Below are positions 1-34,812 of a stretch of 64,000 nucleotides of DNA, piece by piece. The first letter of the stretch is position 1. Every line of letters begins with the position of its first letter. Both the position numbers and the translations under genes were made by a program. Source of the DNA: an uncultured Christensenellaceae bacterium (lineage in GTDB: Bacteria > Bacillota > Clostridia > Christensenellales > SZUA-584); NCBI GenBank assembly GCA_964510055.1, contig CAZDZY010000002.1, forward strand, positions 859-64,858, in the 5' to 3' direction. The notes under the pieces are model-generated. The model had not been told where the DNA came from. It ran no database searches and worked only from the letters and a program-made list of their open reading frames with translations.

Positions 1-936
1 CATCAGCTTGCCTATGAGCAAACCGCCCACGGTGCTGAACATGAACGCGATAAGGCCCAGCCCTATTATCTTCAATGTTTCCGGTTGTAAGAATGTTTCC
101 GCTTTAGCTGTAGCCCCTACGGTAACTCCAAGGAATATCGTAACTATGTTGATAAGCGCATTCTGCGCCGTTTCCGACAACCGCTCTACCACGCCCGATT
201 CCCTGAACAGGTTACCGAGCATCAGCATGCCTATAAGGGGAGCGACCGAAGGAAGCAGCAGTATGCACAATATCGAAACGATGATAGGAAATACTACCTT
301 CTCTACCTTTTTTACCTCGCGCAGCTGCTCCATCTTGACTGCGCGCTCTTTCTTCGTTGTGAGCAGGCGCATTATAGGCGGCTGTATGAACGGTATGAGC
401 GCCATATACGAATACGCCGCTATCGCTATAGCGGACAGAAGATGGGGTGCGAGCCTTGTTGTAAGGAATATCGCCGTCGGGCCGTCGGCGCCGCCTATTA
501 TGCCTATCGAGCCCGCCTCCTGAGGTGAAAAGCCTAATGCTATGGCTATAGTAAAAGCAACGTATATCCCGAACTGCGCCGCCGCGCCCATAATAAGGCT
601 CGAGGGGCGCGCTATCAGCGGGCCGAAGTCCGTCATCGCGCCTATCCCTAAGAATATCAGCGACGGGTATATACCAAGATGTACGCCCTGATACAGGTAG
701 TATAAAAGCCCGCCCGGCTGGTCCCCGGACGGTTCGGCCATCAGCCCGGCAGCCGGCAGATTAGCCAGCAATACCCCGAACGCGATCGGCAGCAGCAGCA
801 GCGGCTCGTACTTCTTCACGATGGCGAGATAAATAAGCACCAGCGCGATCACTATCATTACTCCCTGCAGAAGCGTCATTTGGGAAAAACCGGAGTCCTC
901 CCATATCGTTTTCAATGTGTCGGTAAAAGACGTCAT
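1..936 (-). CDS. Na+-translocating decarboxylase beta subunit (OadB/MmdB/GcdB family); C-terminus lies outside window
   Basis: Absent from the ORF track because there is no stop inside the window. My minus-strand translation from the ATG at 936-934 reads MTSFTDTLKTIWEDSGFSQMTLLQGVMIVIALVLIYLAIVKKYEPLLLLPIAFGVLLANLP...SIGIIGGADGPTAIFLTTRLAP... and stays open to position 1. Polytopic protein. Last gene of the alpha-gamma-BCCP-beta operon. Confidence 0.8.
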   Translation of the reverse strand, partial: MTSFTDTLKTIWEDSGFSQMTLLQGVMIVIALVLIYLAIVKKYEPLLLLPIAFGVLLANLPAAGLMAEPSGDQPGGLLYYLYQGVHLGIYPSLIFLGIGAMTDFGPLIARPSSLIMGAAAQFGIYVAFTIAIALGFSPQEAGSIGIIGGADGPTAIFLTTRLAPHLLSAIAIAAYSYMALIPFIQPPIMRLLTTKKERAVKMEQLREVKKVEKVVFPIIVSILCILLLPSVAPLIGMLMLGNLFRESGVVERLSETAQNALINIVTIFLGVTVGATAKAETFLQPETLKIIGLGLIAFMFSTVGGLLIGKLM

Positions 937-3027: not shown

Positions 3028-3271
3028 TTCCTTTCTTAAAAATTATATATTTTAATTAAATTTAAGGCTCAGTTATGTTTCCGGCTTCTTGCCCGGCAAT
3101 AAATGCGTACTAAAAAAGGGCGGAAACACTAAGCTTCCCACCCTGAAAACTCGAAATCTTGAAACAGAAACTGCCAACCGAAAACCGAAAGTAAGATATT
3201 CAATTTGAAGTTATTATAATATATTGTCGGGGAAAAAACAATTAAAACTTTGTGATGATTTTCTCACTGTA

Positions 3272-11094: not shown

Positions 11095-11366
11095 ACTCTC
11101 CGGATAACAGTCATATCAGTAAATACAGACAGCAATCCTAGCATCTGCCTATAACTGCTTTTTGTTGACACGATTACTTTCCCATGGTAAATTAAACATA
11201 AACTTTGTCGAATGATATAGTAAAATATCATATCCGGATATAGTTAGTAATTTTGCTGTATCTCTCTTTTTATGTACATCTATGTTTCAGCTCAGTTCAA
11301 TCATTATTGCAGGGCGCTTATGTTTGCGCTGCAGGGACCAATATTAGTTTAAGCGGAGGTAAGAAA

Positions 11367-14090
11367 ATGAAAAAGTTCATTGCATTGTTACTATCGTTTA
11401 TCATGGTATTCTCGTTGATACCATCGATCGCGCTGGCGGAAGGCGACCCAACGCCGACGCCTGAGCCAACACCGACGGGAACGCCGATACCTGCTCCTTC
11501 GGGAACGCTAGTATCTACTACTGACCCTTATACAGAGAACGGTACGACCTATAAGACAGAAAGATGGAATGATAGCGGAACTTTGTGGGATTATTATTTT
11601 GAGAATGATATTATAGTTAGCAGACTTCAGGTTGAGCCTGATTACGACGAAACCCGTAATTTACTTGATCATGTTGTACATGTCGATTTTTACATGACAA
11701 ATTCAGAACATTTAACTGTTGTTTACATTGATGGTAATTACAGCGAAATACAAATAACATACGCTCCTCCGGATATACGTAACGGAGAGCTTCCCAGGGG
11801 ATGGGGATCTGAGGCCTATGACCCTACCTGCGGAGGCTCATTGGAACAAGAATATAATGATCCGGAAAGAACGAATAATGGTTTAGGGCCCAGTGTTACT
11901 ATTCCCGGTTTTGTCGGTGATTATCGTTATCTTGGTTCCATAACAGATGGGTATACCGCTGATATATATAGAAATGATCAAATTATTTGTTTCTATGGCG
12001 GGGAGGCACGTTATGTTAAATGGACTGAAGGTGATACAATAGGCCTTATACTTTGTGGTTTATCTTGGGTTGTCCCCGGTGCCAAAGGGATGGAATTGCT
12101 TGCATTGGTGGTAAATGTTGCTAATACTATTTTTACGGGGAGCCAGCTGTTGGCAAAAGAGGATAATGCGATATTCCTTGATTTAATATACTTCCGTTAT
12201 GATTATGTAGTTGTTTATCCTGAAGGAACTATTAAAGGATACCAAAGACTGGACGGATATTTTTACCAACAAAAATATGGATCCGACTTTTATGAATTGA
12301 GGACGCGAGATTTATTTCATATACATCATGATGGCACAATATTAAAAATCGGCGGAGTCAATAATGAAGGAGAAGATTGGGGAATCAGTATACCTGACTC
12401 TATAAGTTTTCTTCTTAACATATTGGATATCTATGGTTTTCATAATGAGACATATACAGATGATAATGACTGCTATTGTAATTATTGTAATACTCCCAGG
12501 CATATATATAATAATCCTTGTACAGATACAGTATGCGCACGATGCGGTGCACCAAGAACAGCTCCCGACCACGACTGGGTTTGGTTTCCGGCAGAGATAT
12601 GGGGCGGCTCGCCTTACATTAAAATAGGCGACGGGCATAAGCAGGTATGCAGTGTATGCGAATCTGTACAGCATGAAGAACTGCATAATAATGATGATGG
12701 TATATGGGGCGTTGATCAAGATACTATTTATGAGCTCGGCCTCTGTGATGATTGCGGCGCGCATATGCAGCGGATGCATGACTACTATTCATATTGGTAT
12801 GATCCTGATTATACATGTACGAATGGCGGCACGTGGGTAACGGATTGCCAAAATAATTGCGGTTATGTGGATTCCGTTCTAGTTTTTGACCATTCTTATT
12901 CAAACATCTGCGACGAGATCTGCGACAGGTGCCTGCAGAAGACCCGAACCGTGCTGCACAGCTATACGAACTGCGCAGATATCAACTGCAACCTCTGCGA
13001 CGCGGTTAGGACACTGCCGCCGGGTTACCAGGAATTAGACGGGCACGTATATCTTAACTGCGAAGACCTGACATGCCAAAGCTGTGAACATGAACGGCTG
13101 GACCCTGTTCACTTGCTCACGGATGTACCACTCTGGTTAACCGTTAATAAACCTAATGTATGCCAGGAATTTACCCTGCACTGCGCGAGACCGGGCTGCA
13201 CATACTCGGATGTTCAGGATACCAGAGGCCATTCCTATGCTGATTGCGCGGACGCCGATTGCGACACCATCGGCTGCAACCAGGGCAGGGGCACGGTACC
13301 GGGCACCCAATTTGATATTAACGGGCATGTGTATGATGATTGCGAAGACCCCACGTGCAACAGGGATACGTGCGGTTTTGTAAGGACTACGACCGGCCAC
13401 TACTATGGCGGCGCACCCTACTTGTTTACCATAAAGACGGAAGCTGTATGCCAGGAGCGAAGAATGGATTGCACGATACCAGGCTGCAGCCACTATGAAC
13501 CTTTGGAGACCTTAGGCCATACATATACCAACCCGTGCACAGATACGGAATGCGCATTATGCCATACACCAAGGATAGCTCCCGGCCATGCCTATAACCC
13601 CTGGCAATCCATTGGGCCTTCCGAGCACAGGCGTGCATGCACCATATGCTTTGTCACGCAGGATGGTAACCACAGCTATGACAACTGCGCGGACGGATAC
13701 TGTAACGACTGTACTTTTGACAGGGGCGCGTTGTCGGGTTATCAGTACGGCGGGCATGTATTCAGCAGTTATTGCAGCGGCGCCACATGCTTAAGATCAG
13801 GGTGCGGCGCGAAAAGGACGGCGCCCGGCCATAACTACCAGACTGTTTATGTCAAGATACACACGGCCGAAAGATGCCGGAAGGTGGTCAGGACCTGCAC
13901 CATCTGCGGCTATTCATATTACTATTATGATACCAGCCATTCCCGCTACGGTTCCTGGACAAGGACGTCTACCAAACATTCGCGGACATGCGCTGACTGC
14001 ACCTATGTGCAAAGCGGATCCCACAGCTTTACCTATATCGGTTCCGGCATTTTGCAATGCACTATATGCGGGTATCAAAAATCGGCCTAG
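11367..14090 (+). CDS. Secreted Cys/His-rich repeat protein A
   Basis: GGAGG RBS. Signal peptide MKKFIALLLSFIMVFSLIPSIALA, a Pro/Thr linker, a ~380-aa unique domain, then many H-x-Y-x(2,3)-C-x-D-x(2)-C-x(2,3)-C-x(3)-R modules and H...C-x6-C-x4-C...GH modules. No anchor motif. Confidence 0.8.
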   Translation: MKKFIALLLSFIMVFSLIPSIALAEGDPTPTPEPTPTGTPIPAPSGTLVSTTDPYTENGTTYKTERWNDSGTLWDYYFENDIIVSRLQVEPDYDETRNLLDHVVHVDFYMTNSEHLTVVYIDGNYSEIQITYAPPDIRNGELPRGWGSEAYDPTCGGSLEQEYNDPERTNNGLGPSVTIPGFVGDYRYLGSITDGYTADIYRNDQIICFYGGEARYVKWTEGDTIGLILCGLSWVVPGAKGMELLALVVNVANTIFTGSQLLAKEDNAIFLDLIYFRYDYVVVYPEGTIKGYQRLDGYFYQQKYGSDFYELRTRDLFHIHHDGTILKIGGVNNEGEDWGISIPDSISFLLNILDIYGFHNETYTDDNDCYCNYCNTPRHIYNNPCTDTVCARCGAPRTAPDHDWVWFPAEIWGGSPYIKIGDGHKQVCSVCESVQHEELHNNDDGIWGVDQDTIYELGLCDDCGAHMQRMHDYYSYWYDPDYTCTNGGTWVTDCQNNCGYVDSVLVFDHSYSNICDEICDRCLQKTRTVLHSYTNCADINCNLCDAVRTLPPGYQELDGHVYLNCEDLTCQSCEHERLDPVHLLTDVPLWLTVNKPNVCQEFTLHCARPGCTYSDVQDTRGHSYADCADADCDTIGCNQGRGTVPGTQFDINGHVYDDCEDPTCNRDTCGFVRTTTGHYYGGAPYLFTIKTEAVCQERRMDCTIPGCSHYEPLETLGHTYTNPCTDTECALCHTPRIAPGHAYNPWQSIGPSEHRRACTICFVTQDGNHSYDNCADGYCNDCTFDRGALSGYQYGGHVFSSYCSGATCLRSGCGAKRTAPGHNYQTVYVKIHTAERCRKVVRTCTICGYSYYYYDTSHSRYGSWTRTSTKHSRTCADCTYVQSGSHSFTYIGSGILQCTICGYQKSA

Positions 14091-14173: not shown

Positions 14174-14396
14174 ACTGTCAATAAGGCCAAAAATCACCCT
14201 TTTCGGGTGAGGCTTTTATTAGTGTTATGTACTATTATAATTCAAAGTTTGTCGAATAATTGATTATTTACTTATGTAGTAAATTTCATTATATATCCGG
14301 GTTTATTAAGTTGTATTTTTAGCCTCATTGAATAATACCGGCAATTATCCCGTCATATCGGGATTTGCATATTAATTTTATATGGAGGATAAACAC

Positions 14397-17267
14397 ATGA
14401 AGAAGTTTGTAGCATTGGTGTTATCGTTTATCATGGTATTCTCGCTGATACCATCGATCGTGCTGGCGGAAGACGATCTTTGCCCGGGTGAGAATTGTGC
14501 GTTTTACACTGAGTTTACTGATCCTAGTTGGAGTGTTCCGATTCATGGCGATTTCGATGTAACGGGTCAAAAAATGCATAAAGTTGCCGGAGTGAATGGG
14601 GACTCAGTTAAAATGTTTGAATATGATAGCACTGGGAACCGTACTGAACATATTATAGAGAGCATTGATGTAGATGATGGGCCAGTTGAAAATAGCTCTA
14701 TTATAAAAATTTATTATGCGCCGAATAAAGTAGAATTTTACGCTAAATATGATCTAAGAATGATATACATAGGAAGTGGCGATGCTGATCAACCCACTCA
14801 AATCTTACAGTATGAAGGTGCATGTGAAACTTGGATAAACGATAAAGTAGGAGATAAAGCAGATTTATGGATATATATAGATAATGTCTATAATACTTTA
14901 AATAGTAACAGTGGTAATTACGGAAATGAATTTGAGGCCTTTCCTCCGATCACCATGTCACATATTGGGTCAAGCACTCCCGCGGTGGCGTGTACAAAAG
15001 CACGGTTGGATGGAAATGGAAGGCCGCGCATAACGTATATTGGCAGTGGTACAACAGTGAATTGGCAAATTAGCGGTTCAGATATTGCGCAATTTTTTAT
15101 CAATTGTTTTTCAGAAACGCCGTTGGGAGCCATAACTCAGCAAATCGTTTGGATGGCTGTGGGCTATGCTATCGCTGAGCGTGATGAGGAACCAATATAC
15201 AGAGTTTACTATGTTGATTACTATCTTTTCATTCAAAAACTAAAATCTCTGCCCCCCTTGGAATTCGATAACGATTTTTCTGGCATAGGAATCGATTACT
15301 TCTCTCTAGGTCCCGTTGGATATTCTGGATGGGGTGGGCATGTTGAGTGTGGGGATTTTTTAAGAGGTGCACCCGGCGATAATTCGGTACGCGGTTGGAC
15401 GTGCATTGATCTACCTGATTTGGATGACGGCATTAATCATAATACGGATCAAGGAACGAAGGATGCGTACTTGAAGCAGCAAGTCGAACAAAGGCATCCG
15501 CACACATTTCCGGGCGAATACAATGCGCTTTGTTCGATGATATGCCCCGACTGCGGCTTCGGACGCAGAGACTGGCCTAATAATGGCCATCCTACATGCT
15601 GGATGCATGCTAAAGATCAATACGAGCAATGGAAACATGTAAAGATCGACGTAGAGTGTGACATTCCAATACTAGATTGGAATGATTCATATTCTTTTAG
15701 TACCACTAGACTGGATTGCAATTGCACAGATACTGGCAGATTTGCGGCTGATCCCAACCATATTTATACGAGTTGCGCGGACAGCATATGCGACTGCGGC
15801 TTTGAGAGAGTCCTGCCGGGCATCCCCAATTCAGACGGGCATGTGTACGATGGCTGCGAGGATATAGACTGCAACAGTATAGGGTGTACCCATGTAAGGG
15901 GCGGGTTCAACCACATCATGAGCGTACCTTACTGGTATAACGCAGAATCGCCTACGGATAATTTGTGCCAGGAATTTGAAAACTACTGCACGAGAGAGGG
16001 CTGCGATTTCACTCTGGTTTCGATGACCAGAGGCCATATCTTTACGGATTGCGAAAACCCCGTATGCAGCAGAGCAGGGTGTGGTTACGTAGGGACTCCG
16101 CTCGTACACTCCATGAGCGTACCCTACTGGTATAACGTAGAATCACCTACGGATAACGTATGCCAGAAATATGAGAATTACTGCACGAGAGAGAACTGCG
16201 AGTACACCCTGGTTTCAATGACCAGAGGCCATTCCTATGCTGATTGCAAGGCCGATGCCTGCGACCGCAGCGGATGTACCTATAACAGGGGCACAGTACC
16301 GGGCGATCAATCTGATGCTTACGGGCATGTGTATGATGACTGCGACGACACCATATGCAACAGGTGCGATTTTGAAAGGGATCCGGCCGCCCACAGCATG
16401 AGCGTACCTTACTGGTATAACGTAGAGTCGCCTACGGCTGATGTATGCCAGAAATATGAAAACTACTGCATGAGAGAGGGCTGCGATTACACTCTGGTTT
16501 CAATGACCAGGGGCCATTCCTATGCGGATTGCCAGATCGGCGCCTGCGACCGCAGCGGATGCACCTATAACAGGGGTACGGCAGCGGGTACCGTGCAGGA
16601 TGGCGGGCATGTGTATAGTGATACCTGCACGGCTACCACATGCAACAGAGATACGTGCGGTTTTGAAAGGACTGCGCCCGGCCACAGCATGAGCGTACCT
16701 TACTGGTATAACGTGGCGTCGCCTACGTCCAGCCTATGCCAGAAATATGAAAACTACTGTACGAAAGAGGGCTGCAGCTATACCCTGGTTTCAAATACCA
16801 GAGGGCATTCCTATGCGGATTGCGCGGACCGCAGCTGCGGCCGCACCGGGTGCGGCTATACCAGGGGCGCGGTGTCGGGCTACCTGCAGAGCGGGCACGT
16901 GTACAGTAATTATTGCACGGCTACCAATTGCAAAAGGTGCGGTTATGACAGGACCGCCCCCGGCCACTCCTATAACGTGCCTTACTGGTATAACGTAAAA
17001 TCGGCCAGCGTTTGCCGGGAATACAGAAATTACTGCACGAGAACAGCCTGCAGCAACTATATAGTTGTACAGAGAGATACCACCCATTCGTACACCTATA
17101 AATGGGTCAATGTGGGAAAGGCCAGCACATGCCGAAAGTATGTCGGGACATGTTCCTCCTGCGGTTATTCCTATGTGTCCTCTTATGACTACACCCATAA
17201 TCTGGTCTACATTACCAGCGGCATATACCGGTGCACCTCATGCACCTATACGGGGCCTTACGTTTAA
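14397..17267 (+). CDS. Secreted Cys/His-rich repeat protein B (paralogue of A)
   Basis: Signal peptide MKKFVALVLSFIMVFSLIPSIVLA is nearly identical to that of A. Different N-terminal domain. Five copies of H-S-M-SVPYWYNVESPT-x3-CQKYENYCTREGC-x-YTLVSMTRGH alternate with HxYxDC...C..C...R modules. Confidence 0.8.
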   Translation: MKKFVALVLSFIMVFSLIPSIVLAEDDLCPGENCAFYTEFTDPSWSVPIHGDFDVTGQKMHKVAGVNGDSVKMFEYDSTGNRTEHIIESIDVDDGPVENSSIIKIYYAPNKVEFYAKYDLRMIYIGSGDADQPTQILQYEGACETWINDKVGDKADLWIYIDNVYNTLNSNSGNYGNEFEAFPPITMSHIGSSTPAVACTKARLDGNGRPRITYIGSGTTVNWQISGSDIAQFFINCFSETPLGAITQQIVWMAVGYAIAERDEEPIYRVYYVDYYLFIQKLKSLPPLEFDNDFSGIGIDYFSLGPVGYSGWGGHVECGDFLRGAPGDNSVRGWTCIDLPDLDDGINHNTDQGTKDAYLKQQVEQRHPHTFPGEYNALCSMICPDCGFGRRDWPNNGHPTCWMHAKDQYEQWKHVKIDVECDIPILDWNDSYSFSTTRLDCNCTDTGRFAADPNHIYTSCADSICDCGFERVLPGIPNSDGHVYDGCEDIDCNSIGCTHVRGGFNHIMSVPYWYNAESPTDNLCQEFENYCTREGCDFTLVSMTRGHIFTDCENPVCSRAGCGYVGTPLVHSMSVPYWYNVESPTDNVCQKYENYCTRENCEYTLVSMTRGHSYADCKADACDRSGCTYNRGTVPGDQSDAYGHVYDDCDDTICNRCDFERDPAAHSMSVPYWYNVESPTADVCQKYENYCMREGCDYTLVSMTRGHSYADCQIGACDRSGCTYNRGTAAGTVQDGGHVYSDTCTATTCNRDTCGFERTAPGHSMSVPYWYNVASPTSSLCQKYENYCTKEGCSYTLVSNTRGHSYADCADRSCGRTGCGYTRGAVSGYLQSGHVYSNYCTATNCKRCGYDRTAPGHSYNVPYWYNVKSASVCREYRNYCTRTACSNYIVVQRDTTHSYTYKWVNVGKASTCRKYVGTCSSCGYSYVSSYDYTHNLVYITSGIYRCTSCTYTGPYV

Positions 17268-26263: not shown

Positions 26264-27043
26264 TTATCGAACATTCAGTCCGGATCTTTCTTTAAATAAG
26301 GCCTCTATCATTACAGAATATTCTTCCCTTATCGGCAATTCAAAATCAACTTTTAACTTTCGTCTCGATGCGGTTTCAGCCTCTCCGGAAACAGGGTTAA
26401 AACCATCCTTTGTATAGTCTTCCCAATAGACCCCTATCCCCCGTTTCTGCCATGAAGGGAGTTTGTCGAAATTTATCCCCCTTGAAAAAAGCAGCTCGTT
26501 TTTAAACGCGACCGCTTTGTTTTCTAGCGCTGCCGTAGCGTCTTGCACAGACACACCTTCTTTACGAAGCATCCAGTAGCAGTGGGCGTTGAGTGCGTTT
26601 CTATGCGCATCTTCCTGCCTCCATAAAAAATAGTCTTTTACCCTCTCGATGCTAGGCAACGGTACCATTCTGCAATCAAAACATGCCGTACGCCCCAGCA
26701 TTAGGCTTATCACTCCGCTCGCTTCTCCCGCAAGGATTGAATTATATTTGCGCACCTTCCGGTCAAATGCCTGCTCAGCGGGGTGAAACAGCAGCGATAT
26801 CTCATCGCTTTCCGTATACCCGTATATAACGCGGAAACCGCATGTCATCAGGTGCTTTACCGTCTCGACCATATAGTCTCTGAACTTATCGTCAAACGGA
26901 GCTTCAAACCTGCATATCTCTTTTGTGAGCCGCGTAAAGCTTCTTCCGTCTATTCGGGCAGTCATAAACAAGTCGGGCAATATGTTTTGATCAAGAGACT
27001 GCTCATACTTTCGCATTATGATGTCAAGCTCGTCAAATCTCAT
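26264..27043 (-). CDS. Thg1-like protein (tRNA-His guanylyltransferase family, 3'-5' nucleotidyltransferase)
   Basis: 259 aa. ARIDGRSFTRL, GYTESDEISLLF, FDCR, and WRQEDAHRNALN match the Thg1/TLP catalytic core as I remember it. Confidence 0.8.
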   Translation of the reverse strand: MRFDELDIIMRKYEQSLDQNILPDLFMTARIDGRSFTRLTKEICRFEAPFDDKFRDYMVETVKHLMTCGFRVIYGYTESDEISLLFHPAEQAFDRKVRKYNSILAGEASGVISLMLGRTACFDCRMVPLPSIERVKDYFLWRQEDAHRNALNAHCYWMLRKEGVSVQDATAALENKAVAFKNELLFSRGINFDKLPSWQKRGIGVYWEDYTKDGFNPVSGEAETASRRKLKVDFELPIREEYSVMIEALFKERSGLNVR

Positions 27044-27506
27044 CTTTCCATTCCTCCGTTATAAATTTACCATCCTCTATCCTCACATAATACAGCTCAT
27101 CGAACCCTTCGGCTTTATAGGGTATTTCGAGCTTGGCCGCAGTAGCGAATATCGCCGCGTCAGGTACTTTCGCTTTACCTTCCCTCATAGCATTGCGTTC
27201 CATACATTCCTTTACGGAACTCCTGAAATACACGCCGGTTACCCTATACCCCGCCTGTTTCGCCGGGATGATATACCTTGCCCTGTCCGCTGCCGCCGGG
27301 TTTGTGTTGTCCACGGCGAAAGATCTCCCCTCTTTAATGCAATTCTCGAGCAGCTGCCTTTCCTTGTTTCTCGTATGCAGTTCGTCGAGGTTTATCCTTA
27401 AATGCGTAGAGACAAGGTATTCTTTATAAAATGCGCTCTTCCCGCTCGCCTGCAGCCCTATGAAGATGACAGCGTTTTTCCGCGTTTTTAATACATCCAT
27501 CTGCAT
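27033..27506 (-). CDS. PNK-type polynucleotide 5'-kinase (P-loop, AAA_33-like)
   Basis: Walker A FIGLQASGKS. FAVDNTNPAAADRARYIIPAKQAGYRVTGVYF and EGFDELYYV parallel the PNKP/T4 Pnk kinase domain. The start is at 27506 or 27500 (the track ORF starts at 27674). The stop overlaps the Thg1-like start by 11 nt. Confidence 0.72.
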   Translation of the reverse strand: MQMDVLKTRKNAVIFIGLQASGKSAFYKEYLVSTHLRINLDELHTRNKERQLLENCIKEGRSFAVDNTNPAAADRARYIIPAKQAGYRVTGVYFRSSVKECMERNAMREGKAKVPDAAIFATAAKLEIPYKAEGFDELYYVRIEDGKFITEEWKDEI

Positions 27507-27613
27507 ACCTCTGATTTTACCAGATATAATATCAAAGCAAAATACTGTGATTATAGAAAATGAAAAAGCACCTTCGAAGAGATGCTTTTTTGTTAATATC
27601 CCCTGTATACCTG

Positions 27614-28039
27614 TTATAGATCCTGAACATTCATCTTCGCAAGCTCCGCGTCCCTTTTCCCTTTTGCCCTGCATGCTGCGTAGATCAGCAGCAATATCGC
27701 AGTCGGGATATTATACTGAAGGAAAAGAAAGATTCCCGTTAAAACCCTTGAACCTATGTCAGGCACTGGTAGATCCGGAACGCTTGTAGTAATATTTTCG
27801 ATCACTTCTTCGCCTCCCGTTTCCGTATGCCCTACTATTACAGTCTGTTCCGAGCTGGTTACGTAAAACGGCGTTACAAACGTTAAAAAGATTGCGGCGC
27901 ACAACGCAACCAGCGGCAGTATAAGACCGAGCCACTTGTTTTCTTTTCTCGACAGGAATATCTGAAGCAGTATTATCCCCGCAGCTAATACGACTATTAT
28001 AGTCCATTCTAATATAATGACCCATTCTATCGGTTTCAT
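27614..28039 (-). CDS. Hypothetical membrane protein
   Basis: 141 aa, 3-4 TMs, begins immediately after the stop of the upstream HTH gene. Confidence 0.5.
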   Translation of the reverse strand: MKPIEWVIILEWTIIVVLAAGIILLQIFLSRKENKWLGLILPLVALCAAIFLTFVTPFYVTSSEQTVIVGHTETGGEEVIENITTSVPDLPVPDIGSRVLTGIFLFLQYNIPTAILLLIYAACRAKGKRDAELAKMNVQDL

Positions 28040-28519: not shown

Positions 28520-28816
28520 CTATTGCTTTCCGCATACCTTCTCGAGTTGTACCACAAAATAGTCTTTCTTTTCTTTCAGGGCATATATCTCGGTTTCTAT
28601 TTCTTCGATCCTTTTATTGCAGGCCTCAATAGCTCTGTCCTGCAGCGAATGATCGTCGCCCGCCAGCCTCTTATGATATTCATGCTGCAATATCTCTATC
28701 TTTTTTTCTTCCCGCTCCCTTCGCAGCGCTTTGTCTTCTTCCGCCACTCTTTCGATTATGGCTGTAAGCAGACGCTCCGCCTCGCTGAAGTCAAGATCTG
28801 AAATTCCCCTTATCAT
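28520..28816 (-). CDS. Hypothetical coiled-coil protein
   Basis: 98 aa, Glu/Lys-rich heptad-like sequence. Terminator-like hairpin downstream at 28478-28496. Confidence 0.45.
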   Translation of the reverse strand: MIRGISDLDFSEAERLLTAIIERVAEEDKALRREREEKKIEILQHEYHKRLAGDDHSLQDRAIEACNKRIEEIETEIYALKEKKDYFVVQLEKVCGKQ

Positions 28817-29031
28817 ATCTGTCGCTCCTTGTTGTTCTACATAATCTATACAATTATATTGTATTTTATATATACCACTTTAATTTTTTACGAAACAAAA
28901 GGCGTCAAGATTTAACGGTTTTTAATCGATGCGGCAGTATCCTGTTGCCATCGGTCATCACTCTACCGGCTCCGTCTTCATATAGTAAATGAGGAGTACA
29001 AAACTCAAAATTCATATAAGAAGGTGTAACA

Positions 29032-30015
29032 ATGGAAAGACCGGATATAGATATGACCCAGGTAAGCCTGAATCCAATTGCCGCCCGGCGGCTTTCACAT
29101 ACTACCAAGAGCATTCCCATGATGGAGAGCATAACTCCCCGCTGGCTGCTCAGGTTTCTGCCGTGGGTGCCCGTCGAGGCAGGCGTTTACAGGGTGAACC
29201 GGGTAAGAAAAGCTCCGCGCGCGGAGGATATGAACGAATACGGAGAAAAACTGATAGACTCGAATTACAGGCATATAAACGAGGATGCGATTACGCAGAC
29301 GTTCGCCGATTATGAAGAAGAACCCAGGGAATACATGCTGAATCTCGTGCAGACTATACTTCGTATGAATACTAATGTTACCGATATATTCAATAAGCCT
29401 ATAGACCAGAAAAACGAGCAGATAAGGCTTGCTATTGAAGCGATGAGAGAAAAACAGGAGTGCGAACTTATAAACGACGAAGAGTTCGGGCTTATTAATA
29501 ACGTGTCGCGCGATATGAGGACCAAGGCGCGGCACGGCTCCCCCAGCCCTGACGACATGGACGACCTTTTGGCCAAGGTGTGGAAAAAACCCGCGTTCTT
29601 CCTTGCCCATCCTAAGGCTATAGCCGCTTTCGGCAGGGAATGCACCCGCCGCGGCGTGCCGCCCGTGGTAATAAACATCTACGGCTCTCCGTTCATGACA
29701 TGGAGGGGCGTTCCTCTGGTGCCGTGCGACAAACTTATGGTCGGGGGCAAGTCGTACGCAAGATCCGAAGGCGGCAGAACAAATATACTTCTGCTGCGGG
29801 TAGGCGAAAAAGAACAGGGCATAGTCGGGCTGCATCAGCCGGGCATACCCGATGAAACAAGCATACCGAGCCTGTCTTTAAAGCTTGCCTATATAGATCA
29901 AAGAGGGATCGCCTCTTACATCTTAAGCCTTTACTTTTCGATAGCAGTTCTCGCTGATGACGCTCTCGGAATGATGGAGGATGTCGAGGTGGGAAACTAT
30001 TATGATTACAGGTGA
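29032..30015 (+). CDS. Family 2A encapsulin nanocompartment shell protein
   Basis: 327 aa. ITPRWLLRFLPWVPVEAGVYRVNRV, EEPREYML, ELINDEEFGLINN, PSPDDMDDLLAKVWKKPAFFLAHPKAIAAFGRECTRRGVPP, WRGVPLVPCDK, and LLLRVGEKEQGIVGL closely track the SrpI-type family 2 shell sequence. There is no cNMP-binding insertion. Confidence 0.85.
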   Translation: MERPDIDMTQVSLNPIAARRLSHTTKSIPMMESITPRWLLRFLPWVPVEAGVYRVNRVRKAPRAEDMNEYGEKLIDSNYRHINEDAITQTFADYEEEPREYMLNLVQTILRMNTNVTDIFNKPIDQKNEQIRLAIEAMREKQECELINDEEFGLINNVSRDMRTKARHGSPSPDDMDDLLAKVWKKPAFFLAHPKAIAAFGRECTRRGVPPVVINIYGSPFMTWRGVPLVPCDKLMVGGKSYARSEGGRTNILLLRVGEKEQGIVGLHQPGIPDETSIPSLSLKLAYIDQRGIASYILSLYFSIAVLADDALGMMEDVEVGNYYDYR

Positions 30016-31435
30016 CACGGGAGACAGGGTACGCGGCACGGCAGACCGTTTATACTGGGAGGAGGAAGTTAAAACTGTCCACGACAGTTCGCTGTTGTCT
30101 TTTCCTGTTAATTTGTATGGGCCCTCCCAGGGAGCCCCCGGACCCCCCCATAGTGTTCTTGCGTGCCCGGAGCCGGCCGCTGATGATTATTACTTCTTAA
30201 GCCGCGCTCCGGAAACGAAAAGCGATCCGGGCTTTAGCATGCTGCGCAGCGATTTTCCCATACTTAACCGCCGCGTAAACGGCCGCAGGCTCGTGTGGCT
30301 CGATAACTCCGCTACGACGCAGAAACCCAACTGCGTCATCGAAGCGGTCAGCCGCTATTACCGCGAATGCAATTCGAATGTACACCGCGGCGCGCACCGG
30401 CTGGCGGCTGAGGCTACGGAGGCGTATGAGGACGCGCGCGAGAAGATGCGTATGTTCCTCGGCGCGTCGGCGAGGGAAGAGATCGTATTCGTGCGAGGCA
30501 CGACTGAGGCTATAAACTTAGCTGCGGCGAGCTGGGGCGGCCAGAACCTGCGCGAGGGCGACGAAATATTGCTTACCGAGATGGAGCACCACTCCAATAT
30601 AGTGCCGTGGCAGCTTATAGCCCAGAAAACGGGAGCTGTCATAAAAGCGGCCCCGATAAACGAGCGCGGAGAGATAGATTTGAGCGAGTATGACCGCATG
30701 TTTACTCCGCGCACTCGCATAGCCGCCGCAGCGCACGTTTCCAACGTTCTGGGGACGGTGAACCCCGTGCGGGAGATGGCGGACATAGCGCACATGTACG
30801 GGGTGCTGTTTCTCGTGGACGGCGCGCAGTCGGCGCCTCACCTGCCTATAGACGTAAAACGCATGGGAGCCGACTTCTTCGCGCTTTCCGGCCATAAGAT
30901 GTACGGCCCTACCGGCATAGGAGTACTGTACGGCAGAAAAGAGCTGTTGTCGGAAATGGCTCCGTACCAGGGCGGCGGGGGCATGATAAGAAACGTGCGT
31001 TTCGACATGACGCAGTACGCCGGCCCGCCCGATAAGTTTGAGGCCGGGACTGTAAACATTGCCGACGCGGTGGGTTTAGGCGCCGCGGCTGATTACCTCG
31101 GGGCGATAGGCATGGAAAAGATAAGCGCCCATGAGAAGGAGCTTACGCAATACCTGATGAGCGGGCTTTCCGGCGTACCGGGCATAAGGCTCATAGGCAC
31201 CGCTCCCGGCAAGATTAGCGTAGTATCGTTCATACTCGATAATATGGAGCCTGAGATGATAGCGAAGGAACTCGACCGGAGGGGAATAGCGATAAGGGCG
31301 GGGCAGCATTGCGCCCAGCCCGCGCTGCAGCATTATGGGCTTAAGAGCACGGCCCGCGCGTCCATCGGCCTGTATAATACATTTGAAGAACTGGACCTGC
31401 TTATAGATTCCGTTCGCGAACTTTCAGGCAATTGA
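30002..31435 (+). CDS. Cysteine desulfurase (SufS/class V aminotransferase) with N-terminal cargo-type extension
   Basis: The ATG at 30002 has GAGGTGGG 8 nt upstream and overlaps the shell stop (an alternative start is 29981). The ~95-aa Pro-rich extension is followed by FPILN...LDNSATTQKP...HRGAH...TEMEHHSN...SGHKMYGPTGIG...RAGQHCAQP. Confidence 0.85.
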   Translation: MITGDTGDRVRGTADRLYWEEEVKTVHDSSLLSFPVNLYGPSQGAPGPPHSVLACPEPAADDYYFLSRAPETKSDPGFSMLRSDFPILNRRVNGRRLVWLDNSATTQKPNCVIEAVSRYYRECNSNVHRGAHRLAAEATEAYEDAREKMRMFLGASAREEIVFVRGTTEAINLAAASWGGQNLREGDEILLTEMEHHSNIVPWQLIAQKTGAVIKAAPINERGEIDLSEYDRMFTPRTRIAAAAHVSNVLGTVNPVREMADIAHMYGVLFLVDGAQSAPHLPIDVKRMGADFFALSGHKMYGPTGIGVLYGRKELLSEMAPYQGGGGMIRNVRFDMTQYAGPPDKFEAGTVNIADAVGLGAAADYLGAIGMEKISAHEKELTQYLMSGLSGVPGIRLIGTAPGKISVVSFILDNMEPEMIAKELDRRGIAIRAGQHCAQPALQHYGLKSTARASIGLYNTFEELDLLIDSVRELSGN

Positions 31436-31495: not shown

Positions 31496-31524
31496 AAAAA
31501 AACAAGGCATTGCCTTGTTTTTTT
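31496..31524. terminator. Bidirectional terminator between the encapsulin operon and rsgI
   Basis: AAAAAAACAAGG-CATTG-CCTTGTTTTTTT, with A- and T-runs on either side. Confidence 0.8.
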
Positions 31525-31533
31525 GTTTCTGTT

Positions 31534-32772
31534 TTAATCGTCGATTTCCTCTTCATCGTCTTCGTGTTCGTCGCTTTCTTCATTGTCGTCTTCCGGATCG
31601 CCGGCGTCCGGTTCGTCTTCCTCATCGTCATCTTCAATTTCGCTGTCGTCGCCCGCGTCTTCATCGTCGTCTTTTTCGTCAGGTTCGTCTGTATCGTCAT
31701 CCTCGCCGGTATCCGGGTTTTCCGCTTCTATATCGCCGCCGTCTTCTTCGCTGTTATGTAAGCCTTCGCCTTCCATATCGTCAGGGTAAGGCTGGTTTTC
31801 GTTTCCCGTTCCCAAAACGTTTATATACAGGTATGCAGATAAACTCTTTCCTTCCGCGCCTGCGTTTCCAACTGTTATTTTATATATATTATCTTTTTTG
31901 AGCCCGCCGCATTGAAGCAGCAATTTTTCTCCGTCTGTTTCTTTGATATCCGCCGGGTATTGTGCGCCGTTTATATCCTTCACGGTTATTGTTTCTTTGC
32001 CTGTAAACAAAACCTCTTTGGAGAATTCAACTTCTATTACGCCGTTTCCCGCGTATTTTGCTTCTACTATATACAAGCCGCCTTTTTTCGTATACCGCAG
32101 GCTGAAATCATAAACCCCGGACTTATCCTTATCGTCCATCGCATACTGCTCTTTCCTTAAGGCATTAAAAGATTCCCCGTCCAGTTTTTGAAGCGTGATA
32201 TCTACAGAAAGCCCGGCGCCCCTGACAGTCTCCAATGCCGAAGCCATAAGCTTCATCTCAGTATCCTGCGCGCGCTGCATATCGTTATCCGAGATGGTAA
32301 GAAGGACATGCCCCGTCGATCTGAGCGTGCCGTCTTTCCATGCCTGATTAATTATCTTACTCACACTGTTTTCCGGTTCTCCCAATAACGAGCCATTAAC
32401 TTCGCCTAAAAGAGCATTGCCGTCTTCATTTATTGCTTCTGCTGATATTACATTTCCCCATTGGTTTACTGCAAGCCGCACTCCGGGGTTGATATTTATG
32501 TCTATATAACCGGCGGGCGTAAACGTAATGAATGTCCCAAGCCCCAGCACGCAGATCAAAAGTGAAGCCGCAATAGCGATAGCATAACGCTTCCATGTTC
32601 TATTCTTCGGCATAGATTCCCGCCCTAAAGAGCCCTCTGCCTTTTTGGGAGCCCCGTATTCAAATTCCGCGCCTTCCTTCATCCCGCTTTTTGCCGGGAT
32701 AGTCATAAAAACTCCGTTATCTGCCAGCACGGTCGCTTCTCCGGCGCTTACCTTCATCACTAAAACGTTCAT
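31534..32772 (-). CDS. rsgI: Anti-sigma-I factor RsgI-like protein with poly-acidic C-terminal tail
   Basis: RsgI_N-like start MNVLVMKVSAGEATVLADNGVFMTIPA. Single TM (AIAIAASLLICVLGLGTFITF), extracytoplasmic module, Ig-like segment, and a ~80-aa Asp/Glu tail. 4-nt overlap with sigI. Confidence 0.65.
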   Translation of the reverse strand: MNVLVMKVSAGEATVLADNGVFMTIPAKSGMKEGAEFEYGAPKKAEGSLGRESMPKNRTWKRYAIAIAASLLICVLGLGTFITFTPAGYIDININPGVRLAVNQWGNVISAEAINEDGNALLGEVNGSLLGEPENSVSKIINQAWKDGTLRSTGHVLLTISDNDMQRAQDTEMKLMASALETVRGAGLSVDITLQKLDGESFNALRKEQYAMDDKDKSGVYDFSLRYTKKGGLYIVEAKYAGNGVIEVEFSKEVLFTGKETITVKDINGAQYPADIKETDGEKLLLQCGGLKKDNIYKITVGNAGAEGKSLSAYLYINVLGTGNENQPYPDDMEGEGLHNSEEDGGDIEAENPDTGEDDDTDEPDEKDDDEDAGDDSEIEDDDEEDEPDAGDPEDDNEESDEHEDDEEEIDD

Positions 32773-33461
32773 CGCATATCCTCCTTTCCGAAAAACTTCG
32801 GCAGCACATAATCTTTCAAATGCTGGTATCCTCCGCTGTGGATTATATATGCCGCTATCAAATATCTCCTGTGCCTTTCAAGCAGTTTCTCGCTTACTCC
32901 CAGTTTCTGCGCTATCTGCTTTACAGGCAGCTTCTTCGTCTTTCTGATCTGTTCTTTGAGATCCTCGTCGCTGAGCATCGCTCCCAATACATAGCCGCAC
33001 AGTTCCTTGCTGCTTTTATGCTTCGGCGACGCCTCCGCGAGCTGTTCCAGCTTCATTCCCCAACCGCCCAGCTCATTTACAAAATCCATTATCTCCAGCC
33101 GGCGCTCCTGCCTGTCTTCCACTATCTCCGCCTGCTGTCGCGCGGTATACTGGTCTATATAACCATCTTCTTCATTTTTCAAAACATGCAGGCCGCTCTT
33201 TTTCAGCTTTCTCCGGTTATCGATAAGCCGGTATTTAATGACCGACGCCGCATATGATAAGAAGTTCCCTTTTTCTTCTTTATATGTCTTTACCGCCTCA
33301 TAGAAAGCCATAAGAGCTACGCTTATCTCATCGTCATCGCTGCCGAATCCCTGGTCGTATACGCGCCCTAATATAAACGGGCGGTATTCGGTTATCAGCC
33401 GCTCAAATTCCTCGTTGCTTTCTTTCGCGATGATCGCCCTTTCATTGACAGAAAGGCTCAT
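32769..33461 (-). CDS. sigI: RNA polymerase sigma-I factor
   Basis: 230 aa. EFERLITEYRPFI...ISVALMAFYEAVKTYKEEKGNFLSYAASVIKYRLIDNRRK matches the SigI region-2 pattern. C-terminal HTH PVKQIAQKLGVSEKLLERHRRY. Confidence 0.7.
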   Translation of the reverse strand: MSLSVNERAIIAKESNEEFERLITEYRPFILGRVYDQGFGSDDDEISVALMAFYEAVKTYKEEKGNFLSYAASVIKYRLIDNRRKLKKSGLHVLKNEEDGYIDQYTARQQAEIVEDRQERRLEIMDFVNELGGWGMKLEQLAEASPKHKSSKELCGYVLGAMLSDEDLKEQIRKTKKLPVKQIAQKLGVSEKLLERHRRYLIAAYIIHSGGYQHLKDYVLPKFFGKEDMR

Positions 33462-33642
33462 TTGTTCTCCTTAGGCCAGGTGTAGAATGATATTTATTAT
33501 ATATAAGTTACTGTTGATATTATAATATCTTTATGCTATTATTTCCACCCTTTTCATGCTGTTCATTTTTCATGAGAAGGCTGCGTATAAGCGCAGCCTT
33601 CCGCCAGACCCTATACCTCAGGAGAATTTATGTCCAAAACGG

Positions 33643-34812
<1,170 letters not shown>

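What the first reader, a model, noticed from the sequence alone, without database searches (positions are those of the whole stretch)
29032..31435. Family 2A encapsulin shell plus cysteine desulfurase cargo operon in a Clostridia-like genome
What the sequence shows:
- The 327-aa ORF carries nearly every conserved block I remember from the SrpI-type family 2 shell: TPRWLLR..PWV.VEAG.YRVNR, PREY, ELIN..E.GL.NN, P.PDD.D.LL..VWK.PAFFLAHP.AIAAFGRECTRRGVPP, WRGVPL.P.DK, LLLRVGE..QG.VGL.
- It has no cNMP-binding insertion, hence subtype 2A.
- The next gene overlaps the shell stop by 14 nt. It encodes a SufS-like cysteine desulfurase with an N-terminal extension, which is the canonical 2A cargo.
- The pair ends at a clean bidirectional terminator (31496-31524). 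No sulfur-assimilation neighbours are visible, so this is a minimal two-gene module.

From established knowledge, family 2A systems have been characterised in a cyanobacterium and in Proteobacteria, where they act as sulfur-related compartments. As far as I know, no example from an anaerobic Firmicute has been characterised experimentally.
Basis: partly seen in the sequence, partly recalled or inferred. Interest (0 to 1): 0.8.

Follow-up and report, generated by a model that had tools for sequence, protein, structure and literature searches.

The report
Sulfur-handling protein compartment operon in Clostridia
The two genes encode a virus-like protein shell and the cysteine-degrading enzyme packed inside it. 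This is a known kind of bacterial sulfur compartment, found here in a gut-type anaerobe lineage where it has not been studied and where the enzyme's packaging tag is unusually short.

Summary
ORF 29032-30015 is a family 2 encapsulin shell without a cNMP-binding domain. It hits Pfam SrpI-like at 5e-102, passes NCBIfam encap_f2a (437 bits, cut-off 380) and matches the solved A. baumannii and SrpI shells full-length at about 1e-103. ORF 30002-31435 overlaps it by 14 nt and encodes a SufS-type cysteine desulfurase. Its closest solved relative is the encapsulated desulfurase of M. smegmatis (8KG1, 1.5e-156).

The pair has its own ribosome-binding sites, a likely promoter and a strong bidirectional terminator. 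No rhodanese or serine acetyltransferase partner is present, which is the published two-gene operon type. The locus is syntenic with a Christensenellaceae MAG, so the Clostridia assignment holds. Both genes are under purifying selection (dN/dS about 0.08).

Two refinements:
- The cargo-loading domain is only about 83 aa, against 155-225 aa in characterised systems. It keeps versions of both published motifs but falls below NCBI's cargo model cut-off.
- The shell groups with family 2B desulfurase shells rather than with SrpI-type 2A shells.

The kind is known and NCBI already names such shells in Bacillota. It is an uncharacterised lineage of a known system, of modest interest.

The parts
28957..28986 (+). 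Putative sigma-A-type promoter: -35 ATCACT (28957-28962), 18-nt spacer, -10 TATAGT (28981-28986)
   Evidence: Inferred from sequence conservation. TCATCACT and TTCATATAGTAAATGAGGA are conserved upstream of the shell gene in L001, L002, L081 and L085. CATATAGTAAA is also present upstream in the more distant L083 and L005. The consensus scanner did not call it because the -35 matches only 3 of 6. No Rfam family matches the 5' region.
29020..29026 (+). Ribosome-binding site of the shell gene (GAAGGTG, 5 nt before the ATG)
   Evidence: Read directly from the sequence. AAGAAGGTGTAA is invariant in five related loci.
29032..30015 (+). Encapsulin shell protein, 327 aa, family 2 HK97 fold, no cNMP-binding domain (architecture 2A)
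   Evidence: PF19307 at 4.9e-102. NF041162 at 436.9 bits, cut-off 380. 8t6r at 9e-104 and 6x8m at 4.5e-103, both full-length. The AF2 model (pLDDT 58.7) hits the seven solved family 2 shells first, at 5e-24 to 6e-17, then HK97-fold phage capsids. dN/dS is 0.076 against L001.
29131..29202 (+). N-arm block ITPRWLLRFLPWVPVEAGVYRVNR (residues 34-57)
   Evidence: Aligns with the N-arm of SrpI, of the A. baumannii shell and of a 2B shell. It is nearly invariant across 120 relatives.
29230..29256 (+). E-loop segment MNEYGEKLI (residues 67-75), shared with 2B shells and absent from SrpI-type 2A shells. It lies at the site where 2B shells carry the cNMP domain and linker.
   Evidence: Alignments. The 2B insertion site in the E-loop is described in PMC8346489 (supplement and section 8).
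29644..29664 (+). TRRGVPP loop (residues 205-211), equivalent to the SrpI fivefold-pore residues R192, G194 and P196
   Evidence: Mapped by hand from the alignment onto the residues named in PMC8049743. All are conserved, as is the C-terminal Arg equivalent to R304.
29986..29993 (+). Ribosome-binding site of the cargo gene (GAGGTGGG), inside the 3' end of the shell gene
   Evidence: Read from the sequence. The same arrangement occurs in related loci.
30002..31435 (+). Cysteine desulfurase cargo, 477 aa, overlapping the shell gene by 14 nt
   Evidence: PF00266 at 1.8e-146. TIGR01979 sufS at 549 bits, cut-off 475. The best solved relative is the encapsulated M. smegmatis Enc-CD 8KG1 at 1.5e-156, against about 1e-126 to 1e-129 for housekeeping SufS. 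PLP lysine K299 (SGHK) and catalytic C437 (RAGQHCAQP) are present. dN/dS of the catalytic domain is 0.078.
30002..30250 (+). Short N-terminal cargo-loading domain (residues 1-83; Ser+Pro+Gly = 30%). It holds TADRLYWEEE (30038-30067) and AADDYYFLSR (30176-30205).
   Evidence: The motifs correspond to the published LARLANEFFS and AASPYYFLDG (PMC8049743). A graded series of intermediates is seen in relatives: LARLANEF, RMANELF, RVANDLFRRG, LANRFYRG, ALNRMYWEED. A YYF-like motif is present in 100 of 116 related cargos. dN/dS is 0.28.
31496..31524 (.). Bidirectional intrinsic terminator shared with the convergent rsgI-like gene
   Evidence: Terminator scan on both strands. RNA fold of -19 kcal/mol, z = -5.4, with 0 of 200 shuffles as stable.

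Best explanation
This is a functional two-gene desulfurase-encapsulin operon in the chromosome of a Christensenellaceae-like Clostridium.

**Shown here**
- The two genes have one orientation and a 14-nt overlap. The cargo's ribosome-binding site lies inside the shell gene, so translation is probably coupled.
- The shell is a family 2 HK97-fold protein without a cNMP domain.
- The cargo is a group II (SufS-type) PLP cysteine desulfurase with intact active-site Lys and Cys. It has an 83-aa Ser/Pro/Gly-rich N-terminal extension carrying both conserved cargo-loading motifs.

**Inferred by homology to the S. elongatus, A. baumannii and M. smegmatis systems**
- Sixty shell subunits assemble into a T=1 particle of about 24 nm.
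- The N-terminal extension anchors desulfurase dimers to hydrophobic patches on the inner surface near the threefold axes.
- L-cysteine enters through the conserved RRGVPP fivefold pore.
- The enzyme turns cysteine into alanine plus sulfane sulfur. The sulfur accumulates inside the shell, shielded from cytoplasmic reductants, as a sulfur reserve or a cysteine buffer.

How the sulfur leaves the shell is unknown. No rhodanese or acetyltransferase partner is encoded nearby.
For: - **Shell identity:**
- **No cNMP domain:**
- **Cargo identity and active site:**. The cargo is closer to the encapsulated mycobacterial desulfurase (1.5e-156) than to housekeeping SufS of Bacillus or E. coli.
- **Loading motifs:**
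- **Pore and cargo site:** the fivefold-pore residues and the cargo-site Tyr (SrpI Y273) are conserved, and F262 is replaced by Leu (mapped by hand).
- **Operon signals:**
- **Gene arrangement in relatives:** the same pair with the same 14-nt overlap is kept in relatives at 72-91% shell identity.
- **Selection:** dN/dS is 0.08 for the shell and the catalytic domain and 0.28 for the loading domain.
- **Experimental basis for the mechanism in homologues:** PMC8049743, PMC10836720 and PMC11659603.
Against: - Nothing here tests assembly, loading or sulfur deposition.
- The loading domain is a third to a half of the length of those tested. Its first motif is degenerate (TADRLYWEEE against LARLANEFFS), and the cargo fails NCBI's cargo model cut-off.
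- Single motifs were insufficient for loading in S. elongatus and M. smegmatis.
- The first His of the GHHCA loop is Gln here and varies in the closest relatives.
- No sulfur-linked regulator, riboswitch or neighbouring gene was found.
- Storing elemental sulfur in a strict anaerobe has not been demonstrated anywhere.
Confidence: 0.85

Rival explanations
1. The compartment is real and loaded, but in this anaerobe it does not store elemental sulfur. It might remove excess cysteine, hand persulfide sulfur to a specific acceptor for Fe-S or thio-cofactor synthesis, or act on selenocysteine, which group II desulfurases also cleave.
For: There is no rhodanese or serine acetyltransferase partner and no sulfur-assimilation gene within reach. 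Benisch et al. themselves propose that different bacteria may use the system differently and mention cysteine detoxification. One NCBIfam match of the enzyme is to selenocysteine lyase SclA, though it is weak (206 bits against a cut-off of 525).
Against: The pore loop and the enzyme core are conserved with the systems in which sulfur deposition was shown. Nothing in the sequence points to selenium. A closed shell without an acceptor partner is harder to reconcile with sulfur trafficking than with storage.
Confidence: 0.2
2. The 83-aa extension is too short or too diverged to load the enzyme. The desulfurase would then work free in the cytoplasm, and the shell would be empty or take another cargo.
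For: The cargo is below the NF041166 cut-off and lacks profile positions 1-226. The first motif is degenerate. Single motifs do not load cargo in two tested systems.
Against: - Both motifs are present, and a graded series links them to the canonical ones.
- In M. smegmatis a 50-residue leading region alone suffices for loading.
- The tight 14-nt overlap and the gene pair are kept throughout the clade.
- The extension is under purifying selection (dN/dS 0.28).
- The enzyme is closest to an encapsulated desulfurase.
- Short extensions of 70-115 aa are the rule in this clade.
Confidence: 0.07
3. The shell gene is a leftover capsid gene of a defective prophage rather than a cellular compartment.
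For: The fold is HK97-like, and phage capsids appear among the distant structural matches.
Against: - No portal, terminase, protease or tail gene is nearby.
- In 50,697 phage records the only matches are two 330-380 kb 'Acinetobacter phage' records carrying the same mmpI-sufS pair.
- Identity to solved encapsulin shells is about 50% by tblastn against SrpI and Acinetobacter and 54-55% to homologous Microcystis and Acinetobacter shells in a protein alignment. Identity to phage capsids is 9-14%.
- The locus is syntenic chromosomal DNA in related genomes.
Confidence: 0.01

Closest known systems
SrpI encapsulin with CyD cargo of Synechococcus elongatus PCC 7942 (family 2A; PDB 6X8M/6X8T; PMC8049743)
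   Same: - Full-length colinear shell (4.5e-103) with N-arm, pore loop RRGVPP, C-terminal Arg and cargo-site Tyr conserved.
- SufS-type cargo encoded immediately downstream.
- Cargo-loading domain at the N-terminus with an AAxxYYFL motif.
   Different: - Shell identity is 49.7% by tblastn.
- The E-loop is about 11 aa longer and carries a NEYGEK segment that SrpI lacks.
- There is an 8-aa insertion at residues 238-245.
- The loading domain is 83 aa against 225 aa.
- F262 is Leu.
- The locus is chromosomal in a Clostridium, not on a cyanobacterial plasmid among sulfur-starvation genes.
Acinetobacter baumannii 118362 desulfurase encapsulin (PDB 8T6R; PMC10836720)
   Same: It is the best solved shell match (9e-104) and has the same shell-then-desulfurase order. 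This is the system in which elemental sulfur storage was shown.
   Different: The Acinetobacter operon has four genes, with rhodanese and serine O-acetyltransferase; here there are two. tblastn with those two partner proteins finds nothing in the window. The loading domain there is about 225 aa. The cargo ATG overlaps the shell gene by 26 nt there, against 14 nt here.
Mycobacterium smegmatis Mmp1 / Enc-CD (PDB 8WOL, 8KG1; PMC11659603)
   Same: The cargo's catalytic domain is closest to 8KG1 (1.5e-156). Residues aligning with that paper's active-site Lys, Cys and Arg are conserved, and an HH pair (EHHSN, window 195-199) aligns with its EHHAN. The M. smegmatis loading domain is modular, and a 50-residue part of it suffices for loading.
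   Different: The loading domain there is 155 aa. The shell match is weaker (1.1e-90). The first His of the HHCA loop is Gln here.
Family 2B desulfurase encapsulins of Clostridia (e.g. Pseudobacteroides cellulosolvens shell P0066; locus L004)
   Same: These are the closest shells outside the window's own clade: 72-74% identity on core columns, against 52-61% for SrpI-type 2A. They share the NEYGEK E-loop segment and the 8-aa insertion. They have a desulfurase cargo with a short extension (about 105 aa in L004).
   Different: They carry a cNMP-binding domain plus linker of about 150 aa in the E-loop. The window shell has none.

Membership tests
Family 2A encapsulin shell | SrpI-like HK97-type shell domain, scored above curated family cut-offs | tested here: met
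   PF19307 at 340.7 bits, cut-off 22.8. NF041162 at 436.9 bits, cut-off 380, covering profile positions 3-295 of 295.
Family 2A encapsulin shell | Absence of the internal cNMP-binding domain (the criterion of Andreas & Giessen 2021) | tested here: met
   No PF00027 hit. The protein is 327 aa, and the 2B insert is absent in alignment A3. The definition was read.
Family 2A encapsulin shell | HK97 fold with extended N-arm instead of the family 1 N-terminal helix | tested here: met
   The sequence is colinear from residue 6-9 with solved 2A shells, including the N-arm. The AF2 model is only moderate (pLDDT 58.7, with N-arm and E-loop at low confidence), but it hits family 2 shells at 5e-24 to 6e-17 and then HK97 capsids.
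Family 2A encapsulin shell | Groups with the characterised 2A shells in a tree (not a defining feature in the current classification; listed for clarity) | tested here: not met
   In a neighbour-joining tree on 268 core columns, the split {this clade + six 2B shells} against 25 SrpI-type 2A shells has 100/100 bootstrap support, and 2A and 2B are intermixed within Clostridia. NF041163 (2B) is also above its cut-off, 423.3 against 400.
Family 2A encapsulin shell | Self-assembly into a T=1 icosahedral shell of about 24 nm | not testable with these tools
   Needs expression and electron microscopy.
Family 2A desulfurase cargo (NCBIfam NF041166) | Score above the curated cut-off over the full profile, including the long N-terminal domain | tested here: not met
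   654.9 bits against a cut-off of 800. Only profile positions 227-623 are matched.
Family 2A desulfurase cargo (NCBIfam NF041166) | Group II SufS-type PLP desulfurase domain with active-site Lys and Cys | tested here: met
   TIGR01979 at 549 bits, cut-off 475. K299 in SGHK and C437 in RAGQHCAQP align with 8KG1.
Family 2A desulfurase cargo (NCBIfam NF041166) | N-terminal disordered loading domain with the conserved motifs LARLANEFFS and AASPYYFLDG | tested here: inconclusive
   The second motif is clear (AADDYYFLSR). The first is degenerate (TADRLYWEEE) but is linked to the canonical form by intermediates in relatives. Ser+Pro+Gly make up 30%. No disorder predictor was available. The length is 83 aa, against 155-225 aa in characterised cargos.
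Family 2A desulfurase cargo (NCBIfam NF041166) | Encoded directly downstream of the shell gene | tested here: met
   14-nt overlap. The same arrangement occurs across phyla.
Family 2A desulfurase cargo (NCBIfam NF041166) | Physical encapsulation that depends on the N-terminal domain | not testable with these tools
   Needs co-purification and truncation experiments.
Family 2B encapsulin shell | cNMP-binding domain inserted in the E-loop | tested here: not met
Two-gene (Enc + CD) desulfurase-encapsulin operon type of Benisch et al. 2024 | Shell and desulfurase without rhodanese or serine O-acetyltransferase | tested here: met
   The neighbours are unrelated and lie on the other strand. tblastn with the Acinetobacter rhodanese and acetyltransferase gives E > 3. 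The operon types were read.
Prophage capsid module | Neighbouring portal, terminase, protease or tail genes | tested here: not met

The most novel reading that the evidence does not exclude
The window represents a distinct, so far unstudied lineage of desulfurase encapsulins that is widespread in Clostridia.

- **Size of the lineage.** At least 113 clusters of cNMP-less shells, clustered at 90% identity, are at least 61% identical to this one.
- **Evolution of the shell.** The shells are sisters of, and intermixed with, cNMP-regulated 2B shells. They keep a remnant of the 2B E-loop linker (NEYGEK), which suggests repeated gain or loss of the regulatory domain.
- **Minimal loading tag.** The cargo is loaded by a naturally minimal tag of 30-115 residues with only two anchoring motifs.

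If so, this would be the smallest natural family 2 loading tag. It would also be a case of sulfur sequestration operating in strictly anaerobic, sulfide-exposed gut bacteria, where the rationale proposed for aerobes (protection from oxidation, sulfur starvation) may not apply.
Probability: 0.4. Interest if true: 0.45.

Novelty: new member of a known kind. Interest (0 to 1): 0.3.

Why it matters
Desulfurase encapsulins are the only protein compartments shown to store elemental sulfur. All three characterised examples come from aerobes or phototrophs. A Christensenellaceae-type example would allow a test of what such a compartment does in a strict anaerobe.

Its loading domain of about 80 aa holds two motifs, and some relatives have one of only about 30 aa. 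That is a natural minimal tag, useful for mapping the shell-cargo contacts that cryo-EM has not yet resolved, and for engineering.

There is also an annotation consequence. NCBI's cargo model misses this clade, so the enzyme is filed as an ordinary SufS or cysteine desulfurase.

None of this changes the picture of the family. It extends it.

Tried and rejected
- **First AF2 run.** With 35 close homologues it gave pLDDT 40.8 and was discarded. A 120-sequence alignment reached only 58.7, with N-arm, E-loop and part of the P-domain unreliable. I therefore rely on sequence alignment to solved shells rather than on the model for the N-arm.
- **Exact look-up of the window's shell protein.** Two attempts found no encoding contig, although an identical NCBI protein exists (P0001). 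The source genome was not identified. Taxonomy rests on synteny with L001.
- **Genome-collection scan.** Contexts came from the look-up of encoding contigs instead.
- **Riboswitch or leader RNA upstream.** None was found at Rfam gathering scores or at E <= 1.
- **Horizontal transfer suggested by high GC of the desulfurase gene.** Rejected. The gene is 57.7% GC against 48.7% for the window, but DAHP synthase nearby is 55.5% and the locus is syntenic in relatives.
- **The 8-aa shell insertion as a clade marker.** Rejected. It also occurs in some Acidobacteria, Planctomycetes and Negativicutes shells. Only the E-loop segment tracks the 2B-like group.
- **Literature.** One broad search was uninformative. 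Supplementary tables listing family 2 systems per phylum were truncated or not held. I could not obtain the published count of family 2A systems in Firmicutes.
- **The divergent 98-aa ORF (28520-28816).** It has no Pfam hit and is syntenic only in the closest relatives. It is not treated as part of the system.
Full report
**Observation**

The window holds two co-oriented ORFs at 29032-30015 (327 aa) and 29981/30002-31435 (484/477 aa). They align position for position with the solved shells of A. baumannii (8t6r, 9e-104, query 6-326) and S. elongatus SrpI (6x8m, 4.5e-103, query 9-327).

Pfam gives SrpI-like PF19307 at 4.9e-102 and no cNMP-binding domain. NCBIfam's equivalog model for family 2A shells scores 436.9 bits against a cut-off of 380.

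The first structure prediction, from 35 close homologues, was useless (pLDDT 40.8). A second, from 120 homologues, reached pLDDT 58.7 with residues 130-265 confident. Its seven best PDB matches are all family 2 encapsulin shells (5e-24 to 6e-17), followed by HK97-fold phage capsids including HK97 itself.

**Cargo gene**

The second ORF is an Aminotran_5 protein (1.8e-146) and passes the SufS subfamily model (549 bits against 475). Its closest solved relative is 8KG1 (1.5e-156). That entry is the encapsulated desulfurase of M. smegmatis with its N-terminal domain removed. Housekeeping SufS proteins, including that of the Firmicute B. subtilis, score about 1e-126.

The PLP lysine (K299, SGHK) and the catalytic cysteine (C437, RAGQHCAQP) are present. 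The His two residues before the cysteine is Gln here, and it is variable (Q/H/R/K/L) in the closest relatives.

**Operon signals**

- GAAGGTG lies 5 nt before the shell ATG.
- GAGGTGGG (29986-29993) lies 8 nt before ATG 30002, which is 14 nt inside the shell gene (stop TGA at 30013-30015).
- That -14 ATG sits inside the codons of the shell's conserved C-terminal Y-[YH]-[DE]-Y. It is found in loci from Proteobacteria, Acidobacteriota, Planctomycetota, Negativicutes and others, so the overlap is a family trait and 30002 is the likely start.
- Downstream, AAAAAAACAAGGCAATGCCTTGTTTTTTT (31496-31524) folds at -19 kcal/mol (z = -5.4) and lies between convergent genes.
- Upstream, TCATCACT and TTCATATAGTAAATGAGGA are conserved in four related loci. 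CATATAGTAAA is also present in two more distant ones. I read this as a sigma-A-type promoter: ATCACT, 18 nt, TATAGT. This is an inference.
- No Rfam family matches the leader.

**Surroundings and organism**

The flanking genes are unrelated to sulfur:
- nitroreductase-like protein
- MarR regulator
- DUF1963 protein
- Thg1-like enzyme
- AAA_33 kinase
- DUF2089 protein
- an unassigned 98-aa ORF
- downstream, an rsgI/sigI/rsgI-like block
- DAHP synthase

Among the Pfam-scanned ORFs between 11 and 50 kb, none belongs to sulfur metabolism. The rhodanese and serine acetyltransferase of the Acinetobacter operon have no tblastn match in the window.

The window is syntenic over 24.5-41 kb, at 75-86% nucleotide identity, with a contig of an uncultured Christensenellaceae MAG (L001; shell 91% identical). 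The exception is a block of about 3.5 kb (rsgI-sigI) that the window has between the desulfurase gene and DAHP synthase. Relatives at 72-82% shell identity keep the same pair with the same overlap, and those at 80-82% also have DAHP synthase next.

The operon is therefore resident chromosomal DNA of a Clostridia lineage (taxonomy). It is not a recent import. The higher GC of the desulfurase gene is matched by DAHP synthase.

Both genes are under purifying selection. Against L001, dN/dS is 0.076 for the shell, 0.078 for the catalytic domain and 0.28 for the N-terminal extension.

**What differs from the characterised systems**

*1. The cargo-loading domain is short.* The catalytic domain starts at residue 84. 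NCBI's dedicated cargo model matches only its positions 227-623 and scores 654.9 against a cut-off of 800.

The distance from shell stop to catalytic domain is 70-115 codons in the Clostridial loci. In most of the other loci sampled it is 150-460 codons, with a few at about 98-145 and one outlier at 858. Characterised domains are 225 aa (S. elongatus, A. baumannii) and 155 aa (M. smegmatis).

The 83 residues are 30% Ser+Pro+Gly. They contain AADDYYFLSR, a clear version of the published AASPYYFLDG motif. They also contain TADRLYWEEE, which I relate to LARLANEFFS through a graded series seen in relatives: LARLANEF, RMANELF, RVANDLFRRG, LANRFYRG, AANRIYRG, ALNRMYWEED. Some relatives have extensions of only about 30 residues, with the N-terminal MITN and the YYFL motif.

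In M. smegmatis a 50-residue part of the domain suffices for loading, although single motifs do not. A two-motif, 83-residue tag is therefore plausible, but it is untested.

*2. The shell is 2A by architecture but 2B-like by descent.* The NCBIfam 2B model also passes its cut-off (423.3 against 400). In the E-loop, where 2B shells carry the cNMP domain and linker, the window shell has 11 more residues than SrpI, including NEYGEKLI. That segment aligns with the C-terminal flank of the 2B insert in Clostridial, Sporomusa and actinobacterial 2B shells, and it is absent from all 73 SrpI-type shells sampled.

In a neighbour-joining tree on 268 core columns, with indel regions excluded, the split between {this clade plus six 2B shells} and 25 SrpI-type 2A shells has 100/100 bootstrap support. 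Clostridial 2A and 2B are intermixed. Because the accepted 2A/2B division is explicitly structural rather than phylogenetic, this does not change the label. It does mean that none of the characterised 2A shells is a close relative (52-61% identity on core columns).

*3. Functional sites.* The SrpI fivefold-pore residues R192, G194, P196 and R304 and the cargo-site Y273 are conserved, and F262 is Leu. These were mapped by hand onto the residues named.

**How it most likely works**

Shown: gene structure, domain content, active-site and pore residues, loading motifs, operon boundaries and selective constraint.

Inferred from the three experimental systems (PMC8049743, PMC10836720, PMC11659603):
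- T=1 assembly of 60 subunits.
- Tethering of desulfurase dimers to the lumen through the N-terminal extension.
- Entry of cysteine through the fivefold pore.
- Conversion of cysteine to alanine, with sulfur retained inside the shell and protected from reductants.

What the compartment is for in a strict anaerobe, and how the sulfur is retrieved without an operon-encoded acceptor, remains open.

**Novelty**

The kind is known. Published surveys count 1,281-1,462 family 2A desulfurase operons in 11-13 phyla and describe a two-gene operon type.

NCBI already names homologues from Vallitalea okinawensis and from Clostridiales and Bacillota MAGs as family 2A shells. An identical protein is in NCBI.

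In the paper library I found no experimental work on a Firmicute family 2 system.

The phage and plasmid collections add nothing that conflicts with this.

**Verdict**

The finding is a correct identification of an uncharacterised lineage of a known system. It has two modest points of interest: a minimal loading domain, and a 2B-like shell without the cNMP domain.

Noticed in passing
window 30002-30015; loci L007, L009, L035, L038, L045, L046, L054, L056, L072 and others: The cargo's start codon lies 14 nt inside the shell gene, formed by the codons of the shell's conserved C-terminal Y-[YH]-[DE]-Y. This is so in many phyla. The cargo's conserved first residues (MIT/MTT/MST) and the shell's C-terminus therefore constrain each other. 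A. baumannii-type loci use a -26 overlap instead.
   Followed up: partly
L002 (JBLNCA010000034.1, 'Burkholderiales bacterium MAG137'): This contig is syntenic with the Christensenellaceae-type loci (shell, desulfurase, DAHP synthase; 75-81% nucleotide identity to the window). It is probably a mis-binned or mislabelled Clostridia contig.
   Followed up: partly
window 31534-34812 (- strand): A block of rsgI-like anti-sigma gene, sigI-like sigma gene and a second RsgI_M-domain lipoprotein-like gene is present in the window but absent at this position in L001, L081 and L085. Both RsgI-like proteins end in long poly-Asp/Glu tails. The repeated GAT/GAA codons produce spurious poly-Ser and hydrophobic ORFs on the + strand (33533-34506).
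   Followed up: partly
window 3132-3179 (- strand): Na+ riboswitch aptamer (Rfam RF03071, DUF1646 motif), 41.8 bits against a gathering score of 40.5. It is the only Rfam hit in the window.
   Followed up: no
window 11253-14090 and 14382-17267 (+ strand): Two adjacent ORFs of 945 and 961 aa with no Pfam match at E <= 1e-4.
   Followed up: no
phage records CAKLQH020000001.1 and CAKLQF020000001.1 ('Acinetobacter phage MD-2021a', 330-380 kb): These records carry an mmpI-sufS encapsulin pair. They were the only 'phage' matches to the shell and may not be genuine phage genomes; I did not examine them further.
   Followed up: no
window 30002-31435 and relatives P0149, P0205, P0221: Public names for this clade's cargo are plain 'cysteine desulfurase' or 'SufS family cysteine desulfurase'. 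NCBI's cargo model NF041166 needs the long N-terminal domain, so the encapsulin link is lost in annotation.
   Followed up: partly
window 28520-28816 (- strand): A divergently oriented 98-aa ORF, rich in Glu, Lys and Arg and without a Pfam hit, lies upstream of the shell gene. A ~102-aa ORF occupies the same position in L081 and L085 (and the region is similar in L001), but not in L083. This is probably synteny rather than a functional link.
   Followed up: partly
window 26264-27674 (- strand): A Thg1-like tRNA-His guanylyltransferase gene overlaps an AAA_33 kinase gene. An AAA_33 gene is also found near the encapsulin operon in L081 and L085.
   Followed up: no
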